Positions 14,768 to 17,841 of a DNA stretch of 32,000 nt are shown piece by piece. The position numbers and the translations under genes were made by a program. The first letter of the stretch is position 1. Every line of letters begins with the position of its first letter. The notes beneath the pieces are model-generated. The model saw nothing but the letters and a program-made list of their open reading frames with translations. It did not search any database and was not told where the DNA came from. Source of the stretch: Promethearchaeia archaeon (GTDB taxonomy: Archaea > Asgardarchaeota > Lokiarchaeia > Sigyniarchaeales > SOKP01); assembly GCA_046497275.1 (NCBI GenBank), contig JAWOFX010000089.1, positions 30,001 to 62,000 of the forward strand, given 5' to 3'.

Positions 14768-16408
14768 ATGACTGAAACTAAAACTCCAAAAAAGGAAGAA
14801 ACAAAAACCAATAAGAAGCAGGTTAAGAGGACTTTTAGAAATCTTTCAGATATTGAAATAGAGCGTCTATATAGGCCCGAAGATATAAAGGATTTAAATT
14901 ATGAAATGGATTTGGGAGAGCCGGGCAAGTTTCCGTTCATAAGAGGGCCTTATAAAAATATGTATCGAGGGCGTCTCTGGACAATGCGGCAATTTGCTGG
15001 ATTCGGTACTGCAGACCAAACTAACAAGAGATTTAAATTTCTTATCGACCATGGACAAACGGGACTTAGTGTGGCATTTCATTTACCCACTATATATGGA
15101 TGGGAATCTACTTCTGAAAGAGCATTAGGTGAAGTAGGTAAGGAAGGAGTCGCAATTGACACCCTAGCTGACATGGAAACGTTATTTGATGGTATCGATC
15201 TCTCTAAGATTTCTACTTCCATGACGATTAATGCTCCTGCCTCAATTTTATTGTCTATGTATATTGTTGTAGGTGAAAAACAAGGTGCCAAACCAGAACA
15301 ATTAAGAGGCACAATACAGAATGATATACTAAAGGAATATATCGCACAAAAATCTTGGATCTTCCCTCCAGAGCCTTCTATGAGACTAATTGTTGATACT
15401 ATAGAATATTGTACTAAATATGTTCCACAGTGGTATACTATTAGTATAAGTGGGTATCATATTAGAGAAGCGGGATCAACAGCAGTTCAAGAATTAGCGT
15501 TTACACTTGCTGATGGATTTGCTTATGTCGAATCTGCTATGGAGCGTGGTTTGGATGTAGATGATTTTGCTCATCGTCTCTCATTCTTTTTCAATTCTCA
15601 TAATAATTTTTTCGAAGAAATAGCGAAATATAGAGCTGCGCGCAGGATATGGGCTAAGCATATGAAAAATAAATACGGAGCTAAAAAACCAGAATCAATG
15701 CGTCTTAGATTTCATACCCAAACTGCTGGAGTTTCATTAACTGCTCAAGAACCAGAAAATAACATTGTAAGAGTCACACTTCAAGCCCTTGCGGCTGTTT
15801 TAGGAGGTACGCAATCGTTACATACCAATTCTTTTGATGAGGCTTTATGTTTACCAACGGAAAAAGCTGTAAGGATTGCTTTACGGACTCAACAAATTAT
15901 TGCTTACGAGTCAGGAGCAGCTGATACGGTCGATCCTTTAGCAGGCTCTTATTATGTTGAATGGCTTACAAATAAAATGGAGAATGAAGCTGAGAAATAT
16001 TTTGACAGAATTGAAGAACTGGGAGGGGTTATTCCTGCAATAAGGAAAAATTTCTTCCAAAAAGAAATCGCAAATGCATCTTATAAATATCAAAAAGAAG
16101 TAGAGAGAAGGGAAAGAATCATAGTGGGAGTAAATAAATATAAACCGGAAAAAGAAATACAACCAGATATTCTAAAAATTGATGACGAAGTCTCAGAGAA
16201 TCAGAAAGAAAGATTAAAACAGATTAAAAAGGAACGGGATAATGAGGCTGTTCAGAGCGCTTTAAATGATTTAAAGGATGCTGCTAAAGGCACAGAAAAC
16301 TTAATGCCTTATATTATTAAGGCGGTAAAAACTTATGCTTCTGTTGGGGAAATCATTGGAATCCTTAAGGAAGTATTTGGAACTTACACGGAGGATTCAA
16401 TTTTTTAA
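14768..16408 (+). CDS. icmA: B12-dependent acyl-CoA mutase, large substrate-binding subunit (isobutyryl-CoA mutase-type residues)
   Basis: PGKFPFIRGPY, WTMRQFAGFG, GTIQNDILKEY, ISISGYHIREAG, FHTQT and QSLHTNSFDEA motifs. F76 and Q194 match IcmA rather than MutB/Mcm. Family assignment is certain; the symbol is inferred. Confidence 0.85.
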   Translation: MTETKTPKKEETKTNKKQVKRTFRNLSDIEIERLYRPEDIKDLNYEMDLGEPGKFPFIRGPYKNMYRGRLWTMRQFAGFGTADQTNKRFKFLIDHGQTGLSVAFHLPTIYGWESTSERALGEVGKEGVAIDTLADMETLFDGIDLSKISTSMTINAPASILLSMYIVVGEKQGAKPEQLRGTIQNDILKEYIAQKSWIFPPEPSMRLIVDTIEYCTKYVPQWYTISISGYHIREAGSTAVQELAFTLADGFAYVESAMERGLDVDDFAHRLSFFFNSHNNFFEEIAKYRAARRIWAKHMKNKYGAKKPESMRLRFHTQTAGVSLTAQEPENNIVRVTLQALAAVLGGTQSLHTNSFDEALCLPTEKAVRIALRTQQIIAYESGAADTVDPLAGSYYVEWLTNKMENEAEKYFDRIEELGGVIPAIRKNFFQKEIANASYKYQKEVERRERIIVGVNKYKPEKEIQPDILKIDDEVSENQKERLKQIKKERDNEAVQSALNDLKDAAKGTENLMPYIIKAVKTYASVGEIIGILKEVFGTYTEDSIF

Positions 16409-16409
16409 T

Positions 16410-16414
16410 GAGGT
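16410..16414 (+). promoter_or_regulatory. Shine-Dalgarno-like GAGGT
   Basis: GAGGT lies 8 nt upstream of ATG 16423 in the 14-nt gap after the mutase large subunit, consistent with an operon. Confidence 0.6.
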
Positions 16415-16422
16415 AAATAAAA

Positions 16423-16824
16423 ATGTCAAATGAGAGAAAAATAAAAGTACTTGTATGTAAACCGGGCTTAGATGGGCATGATAGGGGTGCAAAAGTAGTA
16501 GCTCGAGGTCTTAGGGATGCGGGTATGGAAGTAATCTACACGGGATTGCACCAAAGTCCAAAAGATATCGCCAATACCATCGTCCAGGAAGATCCCGATG
16601 CTGTCTTATTGAGTATATTGAGTGGAGCTCATAATGCTTTATGTCCTAAGATTATGGAAGAATTGAGAAAAAATAATATTGATGATGTTTTAGTAGCCGT
16701 TGGGGGAATTATACCAGAAGAAGATAAAGAATTTCTTAGAAAACATGGATTATCAGGTTTTTATGGGCCTGGAACAGAAATTAAAACGATTGTTGAATTT
16801 GTTAAAAATAATCTCAAAAGATAA
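16423..16824 (+). CDS. icmB: Cobalamin-binding small subunit of acyl-CoA mutase
   Basis: KPGLDGHDRGAKVVARGLRDAGMEVIYTG contains the DxHxxG base-off/His-on motif, with SILSGAH and GGIIP. The symbol depends on the large-subunit specificity call. Confidence 0.88.
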   Translation: MSNERKIKVLVCKPGLDGHDRGAKVVARGLRDAGMEVIYTGLHQSPKDIANTIVQEDPDAVLLSILSGAHNALCPKIMEELRKNNIDDVLVAVGGIIPEEDKEFLRKHGLSGFYGPGTEIKTIVEFVKNNLKR

Positions 16825-16833
16825 AGTTTTATT

Positions 16834-17841
16834 ATGGAAAATAAATACGAAGATCTTATCGATCGATTAATTCAAGGAGAACCTAGAGCAGCAGCAAGAC
16901 TTATTACAATAGTTGAGAATAACATTAATGCGGCTGAGGAAATAATAAATTCGATATATCAAAACACCGGAAATGCATATATTTTAGGTATTACTGGAGC
17001 ACCTGGAAGTGGAAAGAGTACGTTCATATCAACACTAGTAAAGAAATACGCTAATCAAGGAAAAAAAATAGGGATTATATGCGTTGATCCCTCATCTCCA
17101 TTAACAGGTGGCGCTCTTCTTGGAGATAGAATTCGGATGAAGCAACATTTTTCTTTAGATAATGTTTTCATCAGAAGTATGGCAAATCGAGGGCAATTAG
17201 GTGGGCTCTCTCGAGCAACAGAAGATGTAATCAAAATTCTTGATGCTAATGGTTGCGATATTATTATCGTAGAAACTGTGGGAGTAGGTCAGTCTGAAGT
17301 TGATATCTTTAAATCTGCTCATAGTGTCTTAGTTTTATTGGTGCCTGGTCTTGGAGATGATATTCAGACCATTAAAGCGGGGATAATGGAAATTACTGAT
17401 ATTTTTGTTGTAAATAAGATGGATCTTGAGGGAGCAGACCGAAAAGTGGCTGAACTTATTCAGATGTTGGAACTAAATATGAATTACAAATATGATTCGA
17501 GTGTGATAAAAGATGATTATGCAAAAACACGGGATTGGACACCTGAAATAGTGAAAACAAATTCAATTACAGGAGAAAATTTTGATAAATTACTCAAAAC
17601 AATAAATAAACATAGAGAATATTTAGAGAATTCTGGAGTTATTTCGAATTATAAAAAAAATCGAATAAAAAATGAGACTTTGCAAATTCTAAAACATAAA
17701 CTAACTAAGAAAATAGAGAATCTCTTCAAAGATAATGAAAAGATTGACGAATATATCAATCAAGTTATAGATAAAGCAATCGATCCTTATACTATGGCGG
17801 ATCTTATTATTGAGATGCTTGGTCTTAATAATAATGTATAG
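16834..17841 (+). CDS. meaB: MeaB/ArgK G-protein chaperone of B12 mutases
   Basis: GITGAPGSGKST, VDPSSPLTGGALLGDRIRM, FIRSMANRG, ETVGVGQSE and NKMD motifs. Confidence 0.96.
   Translation: MENKYEDLIDRLIQGEPRAAARLITIVENNINAAEEIINSIYQNTGNAYILGITGAPGSGKSTFISTLVKKYANQGKKIGIICVDPSSPLTGGALLGDRIRMKQHFSLDNVFIRSMANRGQLGGLSRATEDVIKILDANGCDIIIVETVGVGQSEVDIFKSAHSVLVLLVPGLGDDIQTIKAGIMEITDIFVVNKMDLEGADRKVAELIQMLELNMNYKYDSSVIKDDYAKTRDWTPEIVKTNSITGENFDKLLKTINKHREYLENSGVISNYKKNRIKNETLQILKHKLTKKIENLFKDNEKIDEYINQVIDKAIDPYTMADLIIEMLGLNNNV

What the first reader, a model, noticed from the sequence alone, without database searches (positions are those of the whole stretch)
14768..17841. B12 mutase operon has the isobutyryl-CoA mutase signature, not methylmalonyl-CoA mutase
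Seen: WTMRQFAG (Phe76, codon 14993-14995) and KEYIAQKSW (Gln194, codon 15347-15349). Known: methylmalonyl-CoA mutase has Tyr89/Arg207 (P. shermanii numbering) at these positions to bind the substrate carboxylate, whereas isobutyryl-CoA mutase has Phe/Gln. Automated pipelines would likely label this gene mcm. Inference: this archaeon has a split IcmA-IcmB-MeaB system interconverting n-butyryl- and isobutyryl-CoA (or related acyl-CoAs), which would link valine/branched-chain acid fermentation to beta-oxidation and fit a syntrophic peptide-fermenting lifestyle.
Basis: partly seen in the sequence, partly recalled or inferred. Interest (0 to 1): 0.72.

Follow-up and report, generated by a model that had tools for sequence, protein, structure and literature searches.

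The report
Asgard isobutyryl-type B12 acyl-CoA mutase
A vitamin-B12 enzyme that databases call methylmalonyl-CoA mutase in Lokiarchaeia (Asgard archaea) lacks the residues that grip an acid group and most likely swaps branched and straight four-carbon acyl-CoAs instead; this is a known kind of enzyme, mislabelled across the group and not yet assayed.

Summary
Observation confirmed. The window holds an intact split AdoCbl acyl-CoA mutase operon (large subunit, B12 subunit, MeaB) of a Lokiarchaeia genome. Phe76/Gln194 align without gaps to MCM Tyr89/Arg207 and IcmF Phe598/Gln742, and are invariant in 120 nearest homologues, which are named methylmalonyl-CoA mutase or acyl-CoA mutase family where named. 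Context agrees: no methylmalonyl-CoA epimerase over cut-off in 161 genomes of the class; 0 of 65 Phe/Gln-only loci versus 11 of 13 Tyr/Arg-only loci have an epimerase or carboxyltransferase neighbour; this genome has a separate Tyr/Arg paralogue. So 'not MCM' is about 95%. 'ICM' is about 65%: the pocket matches IcmA/IcmF, but the Loki clade is not sister to IcmA (AU p=0.002), Gln207 also occurs in HCM, and the clade carries an unusual His in the Asp118 loop. About 120 genomes of the order have the gene; it is the only mutase in the genomes matching cultured MK-D1 and B35 by size. A fourth gene (AF_1314-like) follows meaB in 22 of 30 loci. The scan noted the same signature before in other genomes. 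Known enzyme kind, useful re-annotation, moderate interest.

The parts
14768..16408 (+). Acyl-CoA mutase large (substrate-binding TIM barrel) subunit, 546 aa, Phe/Gln type
   Evidence: TIGR00641 793 bits, PF01642; best PDB hit HCM 4R3U, E 2.5e-169
14993..14995 (+). Phe76 (= MCM Tyr89, IcmF Phe598, HCM Ile90)
15080..15082 (+). His105, at the position of Asp118 of MCM/ICM/HCM; relatives have His105/Pro107 or Ser105/His107
15347..15349 (+). Gln194 (= MCM Arg207, IcmF Gln742)
16423..16824 (+). B12-binding small subunit, 133 aa, DxHxxG motif with His19 (codon 16477-16479) and SxLxG
   Evidence: TIGR00640 163 bits, PF02310
16834..17841 (+). MeaB G-protein chaperone, 335 aa, P-loop, DPSS, ETxGxGQ, NKxD and switch III intact
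   Evidence: TIGR00750 348 bits over cut-off 241; motifs
17882..18658 (+). Fourth co-oriented gene, 258 aa, AF_1314-like (PF27252): Rossmann domain plus Cys-rich domain; function unknown; link to the mutase is by position only
   Evidence: 40 nt after meaB; meaB within 1.5 kb in 22 of 30 Lokiarchaeia loci

Best explanation
A two-subunit adenosylcobalamin radical mutase for a small uncharged aliphatic acyl-CoA, most likely isobutyryl-CoA <-> n-butyryl-CoA. The small subunit binds AdoCbl base-off/His-on through His19. MeaB gates cofactor loading from a CobO-type adenosyltransferase. Acyl-CoA binding closes the barrel, the Co-C bond breaks, the adenosyl radical abstracts H and the thioester carbon migrates 1,2. 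Phe76 and Gln194 remove the carboxylate clamp and leave a small hydrophobic pocket. Physiologically it most likely turns valine-derived isobutyryl-CoA (aminotransferase, 2-oxoacid:ferredoxin oxidoreductase) into butyryl-CoA for the cell's reversible butyrate/beta-oxidation enzymes. Shown: genes, residues, distribution, context. Inferred from family knowledge: chemistry. Inferred and untested: substrate and pathway.
For: All 11 pocket-lining positions compared are identical to IcmF and to the IcmA-type protein (the list of positions is from my memory of the IcmF structures, the mapping). It lacks HCM's Ile90/Asp117 and the Leu/Asn and reshaped pocket of Xanthobacter Xaut_5043. With the signature columns removed, the Tyr/Arg group is monophyletic (99/99) and excludes the window protein. 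Epimerase TIGR03081: 0 of 161 genomes over cut-off; carboxyltransferase PF01039: 15 of 161, none in this genome. Neighbourhood test within 4 kb: 0 of 65 F/Q-only loci, 11 of 13 Y/R-only loci. The genome has a class IV aminotransferase, 7 POR-family alpha subunits and 13 acyl-CoA dehydrogenases, and no HIBADH or MMSDH over cut-off for the usual valine route. CobO is directly upstream in the MK-D1- and B35-sized genomes, and a 3-hydroxyacyl-CoA dehydrogenase follows the operon in the latter.
Against: No assay of any member of this clade was found. The clade (96/93) is not sister to the IcmA lineage (AU p=0.002) and is only 50% identical to IcmA-type and 37% to IcmF, against 56-59% to split Tyr/Arg mutases. 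HCM arises from among Gln207 sequences, so the F/Q group is a broad grade that may hold several specificities. Second-tier positions 198, 283 and 361 are MCM-like, and Asp118 is replaced by His or Ser. Valine is not named among MK-D1's catabolic routes in the passages I could read (PMC7015854). Neighbours in the window are not acyl-CoA genes, apart from an acyl-CoA ligase-like gene 4 kb upstream. No adenosyltransferase was found in this assembly, though 130 of 161 genomes have CobO.
Confidence: 0.65

Rival explanations
1. Same chemistry, different non-carboxylated substrate: 2-hydroxyisobutyryl/3-hydroxybutyryl-CoA (RCM-like), isovaleryl/pivalyl-CoA, or 2-methylbutyryl/valeryl-CoA and longer 2-methyl acyl-CoAs; ICM activity would be minor.
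For: Best PDB sequence and fold match is HCM; HCM shares Gln207 and nests among F/Q sequences; exclusive sisterhood with IcmA rejected; a His is kept at 105 or 107 in 120 of 120 relatives, next to the residue that sets HCM specificity. IcmF itself accepts isovaleryl- and pivalyl-CoA (PDB 5CJV, 5CJW).
Against: Ala103 and Phe76 rather than HCM's Asp/Ile; pocket identical to both ICM references and unlike Xaut_5043; no HIBA-CoA ligase gene in the operon, unlike the HCM clusters. I could not obtain the Kyrpidia RCM sequence, so RCM-type was not tested.
Confidence: 0.27
2. It is a methylmalonyl-CoA mutase with an atypical pocket, as annotated.
For: Database names; higher overall identity to split Tyr/Arg mutases than to IcmA; G013 has a carboxyltransferase and only this mutase.
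Against: Both carboxylate ligands are absent and invariantly so; it lies outside the Tyr/Arg clade; no epimerase in the class and no carboxyltransferase in 146 of 161 genomes; a Tyr/Arg paralogue is present.
Confidence: 0.05
3. The large subunit is non-catalytic or degenerate and the operon mainly supplies the B12 subunit and MeaB to the orphan Tyr/Arg subunit on C20.
For: The C20 gene has no small subunit or MeaB nearby, here or in 11 related loci; the genome has only two small subunits for three large ones.
Against: Tyr230, His231, Glu234, Gln184, Gln318 and Asn354 are conserved; identity is 68-90% across the order; the MK-D1- and B35-sized genomes keep this gene as their only mutase.
Confidence: 0.03

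Closest known systems
Isobutyryl-CoA mutase IcmA/IcmB of Streptomyces (EC 5.4.99.13)
   Same: Split architecture; Phe/Gln; Ala at 116; identical at the 11 pocket positions compared (reference: 566-aa proteins L174/L176 from unnamed large actinobacterial genomes, taken as IcmA orthologues from my own knowledge of length and motifs)
   Different: 50% identity; not sister in the tree (AU p=0.002); His/Ser for Asp118; Asn198, Arg283, Gln361 against Thr, Gly, Asn; icmA-icmB-meaB are contiguous here
IcmF (fused ICM-MeaI, Cupriavidus metallidurans, PDB 4XC6/5CJT; NF045497)
   Same: Phe598/Gln742 and the rest of the pocket; same three functional modules
   Different: Three separate genes; 387 bits against a cut-off of 1500; 37% identity
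2-Hydroxyisobutyryl-CoA mutase HcmAB (Aquincola, PDB 4R3U; Methylibium PM1)
   Same: Closest solved structure (51%); split; Gln at 207
   Different: Phe not Ile at 89; Ala not Asp at 116; no CoA ligase in the operon
Split Tyr/Arg methylmalonyl-CoA mutases (e.g. Ilyobacter polytropus; EC 5.4.99.2)
   Same: Large-small-MeaB gene order; 59% identity; CoA-channel residues
   Different: No Tyr89/Arg207; no epimerase or carboxyltransferase context; outside the Y/R clade
Pivalyl-CoA mutase Xaut_5043/5044 of Xanthobacter autotrophicus (assignment from my memory)
   Same: Split, with MeaB, no carboxylate clamp
   Different: 38% identity; Leu/Asn at 89/207 and six further differences among the 11 pocket positions

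Membership tests
AdoCbl acyl-CoA mutases (split type) | PF01642/TIGR00641 barrel subunit with conserved Tyr243, His244, Gln197, Gln330 | tested here: met
AdoCbl acyl-CoA mutases (split type) | B12-binding subunit with DxHxxG and a MeaB chaperone | tested here: met
Isobutyryl-CoA mutase (ICM) | Phe at 89 and Gln at 207 | tested here: met
Isobutyryl-CoA mutase (ICM) | Remaining acyl-pocket residues as in IcmF/IcmA | tested here: met
   11 of 11 identical; most are shared with MCM too, so only weakly diagnostic
Isobutyryl-CoA mutase (ICM) | Orthology (exclusive clade) with Streptomyces IcmA | tested here: not met
   AU p=0.002 for Loki clade + IcmA lineage; deeper order unresolved
Isobutyryl-CoA mutase (ICM) | Interconverts isobutyryl- and n-butyryl-CoA | not testable with these tools
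   needs an assay
IcmF | Single fused polypeptide, NF045497 over cut-off | tested here: not met
   three genes; 387 of 1500 bits
Methylmalonyl-CoA mutase | Tyr89 and Arg207 | tested here: not met
   Phe76/Gln194
Methylmalonyl-CoA mutase | Epimerase and carboxylase/decarboxylase partners in locus or genome | tested here: not met
   genome 98.9% complete; only weak VOC-fold hits
HCM (S-specific) | Ile90 and Asp117 | tested here: not met
   Phe76, Ala103
RCM (Kyrpidia-type, R-specific HCM) | Its active-site signature and clade | not tested
   reference sequence and paper not obtainable
Pivalyl-CoA mutase | Leu at 89 with enlarged pocket | tested here: not met

The most novel reading that the evidence does not exclude
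The Asgard Phe/Gln mutases with a His in the Asp118 loop are a subfamily with a substrate or cobamide preference not yet described, and the co-located AF_1314-like Rossmann/Cys protein is a new accessory (cofactor reduction or repair) factor; the module would be a core, possibly ancestral, piece of Asgard acyl-CoA metabolism that can be tested in MK-D1 and B35.
Probability: 0.15. Interest if true: 0.65.

Novelty: new member of a known kind. Interest (0 to 1): 0.36.

Why it matters
Metabolic models of Asgard archaea read these genes as methylmalonyl-CoA mutase (for example PMC8163825, for alkane degradation). In Lokiarchaeia the commonest mutase cannot be that enzyme by signature or context, and in the genomes matching the two cultured members it is the only mutase. 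If it is an ICM, it gives these peptide fermenters a B12-dependent route between branched and straight C4 acyl-CoAs and one concrete use for the vitamin B12 that MK-D1 is predicted to exchange with partners (PMC7015854). I found no paper joining Asgard archaea with isobutyryl-CoA mutase in the searchable library (the key ICM papers were not held), but ICM is an established enzyme and is already annotated in an archaeon (PMC7285479). The gain is a correct, testable annotation, not new chemistry.

Tried and rejected
Primary ICM/HCM/RCM papers (Jost 2015, Cracan 2010 and 2012, Rohde 2017, Weichler 2015) were not held, so pocket lists and PCM/IcmA assignments rest on my memory plus tool alignments. 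The AlphaFold model of the large subunit was poor around residues 45-78 and 320-393; it confirms the fold only and could not be used for pocket geometry or for His105. Expression: the one RNA run holding the MK-D1-sized locus assembles into a 39-kb contig with flat depth, so it shows DNA presence, not transcription. Promoter/terminator scan was at chance level and uses a bacterial model; no Rfam hit or cobalamin riboswitch. A search for longer homologues gave bacterial-type fusions and no named Asgard fusion (weak evidence). The fourth gene folds confidently (pLDDT 95) but matches only generic Rossmann domains, and three distant homologues are not beside mutases. No complex prediction was run: large+small would pass by likeness to solved structures. 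Asgard-wide monophyly of the F/Q gene is unresolved, so I make no ancestry claim.

Full report
Observation. The three ORFs are intact and tightly spaced: 14768-16408 (546 aa), 16423-16824 (133 aa), 16834-17841 (335 aa). They match TIGR00641/PF01642, TIGR00640/PF02310 and TIGR00750 MeaB over cut-off. Codons 14993-14995 and 15347-15349 are TTT (Phe76) and CAA (Gln194). The alignment to P. shermanii MCM is gap-free over both sites and gives Tyr89 and Arg207. A Bacteroidota IcmF, aligned to PDB 4XC6, maps them to Phe598 and Gln742. The small subunit has DGHDRG (His19) and SILSG; MeaB motifs are intact.

Organism and distribution. The 120 nearest proteins (78-90% identical) are, where named, almost all from Lokiarchaeota/Promethearchaeota and are called methylmalonyl-CoA mutase or acyl-CoA mutase family. 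Phe76 and Gln194 are invariant in all 120. Counting rows by hand, about 121 of the 154 genomes of the order carry a match of at least 68% identity; I read the signature directly in more than 50 Lokiarchaeia loci and all were F/Q. Two single-contig genomes have exactly the published lengths of Promethearchaeum syntrophicum MK-D1 (4,324,194 bp; PMC11316595) and Ca. Lokiarchaeum ossiferum B35 (6,035,313 bp; PMC9834061); the identification is by size. Each has one PF01642 gene, it is F/Q, and it sits in the order cobO, large, small, meaB, fourth gene. Across the phylum, the best hit in 12 of 13 other families sampled is F/Q, usually beside a second, Tyr/Arg gene. F/Q split mutases are also common in bacteria and haloarchaea, so the signature itself is ordinary.

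Paralogues. This genome has three large subunits: the window's F/Q gene; a Tyr/Arg gene on C20 with no small subunit or MeaB nearby, between a DUF35-like gene and a thiolase and near an acyl-CoA dehydrogenase and an enoyl-CoA hydratase; and a divergent gene on C181 with its own small subunit and MeaB. It occurs in about 58 of 161 genomes.

Context test. The methylmalonyl-CoA epimerase model passes cut-off in 0 of 161 genomes while it does so in 7 control genomes. Acyl-CoA carboxyltransferase occurs in 15 of 161 and not here. Among 80 named loci with up to 4 kb flanks, none of 65 F/Q-only loci has an epimerase or carboxyltransferase neighbour, against 11 of 13 Y/R-only loci. Related genomes are not independent, but the contrast spans many phyla. 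This is evidence independent of the two residues that the enzyme does not work in a methylmalonyl-CoA pathway.

Pocket and tree. At 11 positions that line the acyl pocket of IcmF (list from memory, mapping from tools) the protein is identical to IcmF and to IcmA-type proteins; it differs from HCM (Ile90, Asp117) and from Xanthobacter Xaut_5043. Most of these positions are shared with MCM too, so the diagnosis rests mainly on 89, 116 and 207. In a maximum-likelihood tree built without the signature columns, Tyr/Arg enzymes form one clade (99/99) that includes the C20 paralogue and excludes the window protein; the Loki F/Q genes form their own clade (96/93); IcmA, HCM and IcmF lie elsewhere and the base is unresolved. 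An exclusive Loki+IcmA clade is rejected (AU p=0.002). So it works like an ICM by pocket, but is not shown to be an IcmA orthologue. One real difference: Asp118, kept in the MCM, ICM, IcmF and HCM references, is His105 here; among 120 relatives 27 have His105/Pro107 and 93 have Ser105/His107, so a His is always kept in this loop. His105 recurs in five other Asgard families and a few bacteria. Its role is unknown.

Mechanism. From established family knowledge: His-on AdoCbl in the small subunit, MeaB-gated loading, Co-C homolysis on acyl-CoA binding, H abstraction and 1,2 thioester shift. With no carboxylate clamp, the substrate is an uncharged acyl-CoA; isobutyryl/n-butyryl-CoA is most likely (0.65), other small acyl- or hydroxyacyl-CoAs next (0.27), MCM (0.05) and a non-catalytic role (0.03) least. 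The genome has a class IV aminotransferase, seven POR-family alpha subunits and thirteen acyl-CoA dehydrogenases, and no 3-hydroxyisobutyrate or methylmalonate-semialdehyde dehydrogenase over cut-off, which fits valine -> isobutyryl-CoA -> butyryl-CoA. Butyrate metabolism in Asgard archaea is described as reversible and probably fermentative (PMC7015854), so the direction is open. ICM clusters with MeaB are proposed for syntrophic isobutyrate degradation in bacteria (PMC5017805). This pathway step is inference; no expression data were usable. No adenosyltransferase was found in this assembly, probably an assembly gap since 5 of 6 congeners and 130 of 161 genomes have CobO.

A fourth gene, 17882-18658, starts 40 nt after meaB. 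It belongs to PF27252 (AF_1314-like), with a GGGxFG Rossmann start and invariant Cys150/154/161/243/245 and His246. It is found in 38 of 161 genomes, has meaB within 1.5 kb in 22 of 30 loci across two families, but was not found in the two largest genera, which keep the mutase, and three distant homologues are not beside mutases. It is therefore not an obligate part; a functional link is possible and unproven.

Verdict. Real, correctly aligned, and a sound correction of a common annotation, but a member of a known enzyme kind with a widespread signature that this scan has already noted in other genomes. The added value is its near-core status in Lokiarchaeia and its testability in cultured strains. 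Interest 0.36.

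Noticed in passing
G000 contig C20:5800-7476 (L001): Orphan Tyr/Arg mutase large subunit in about 58 of 161 genomes, in a thiolase/DUF35/ACAD/ECH cluster, in a class that lacks the epimerase and mostly the carboxyltransferase; it may act on another dicarboxylic acyl-CoA and may borrow the window's small subunit and MeaB.
   Followed up: partly
G000 contig C181:3451-5124 (L002): Divergent third mutase (RLFSG, Tyr at 207, Asn for His244, Glu at 168) with its own small subunit and MeaB, near an ACAD-ETF operon; close relatives occur in Actinomycetota (L182, L183).
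   Followed up: partly
window 17882-18658: AF_1314-like Rossmann/Cys-rich protein after meaB; confident model, no close solved fold.
   Followed up: yes
window 15080-15088: His105/Pro107 versus Ser105/His107 swap in the loop that has Asp118 in studied mutases.
   Followed up: partly
window 12498-13649: MSMEG_0568-like radical SAM gene lies just upstream of the mutase in more than 20 Lokiarchaeia loci; may be plain synteny with rpl10e and grpE/dnaK.
   Followed up: partly
window 13751-14509: DUF166 gene on the minus strand between the radical SAM gene and the mutase; not seen at this place in any related locus fetched, where cobO often sits instead.
   Followed up: partly
window 9180-10553: Acyl-CoA ligase (ADP-forming) alpha-like gene, syntenic with the mutase in several relatives; one of about a dozen paralogues.
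   Followed up: no
window 20034-21212: URO-D/MtaA-family methyltransferase-like gene, one of nine or more paralogues, pointing to wide corrinoid use in this genome.
   Followed up: no
several g12/g13 genomes: Some CobO matches have one in-frame stop inside the match; probably a shorter N-terminus rather than broken genes; not checked.
   Followed up: no
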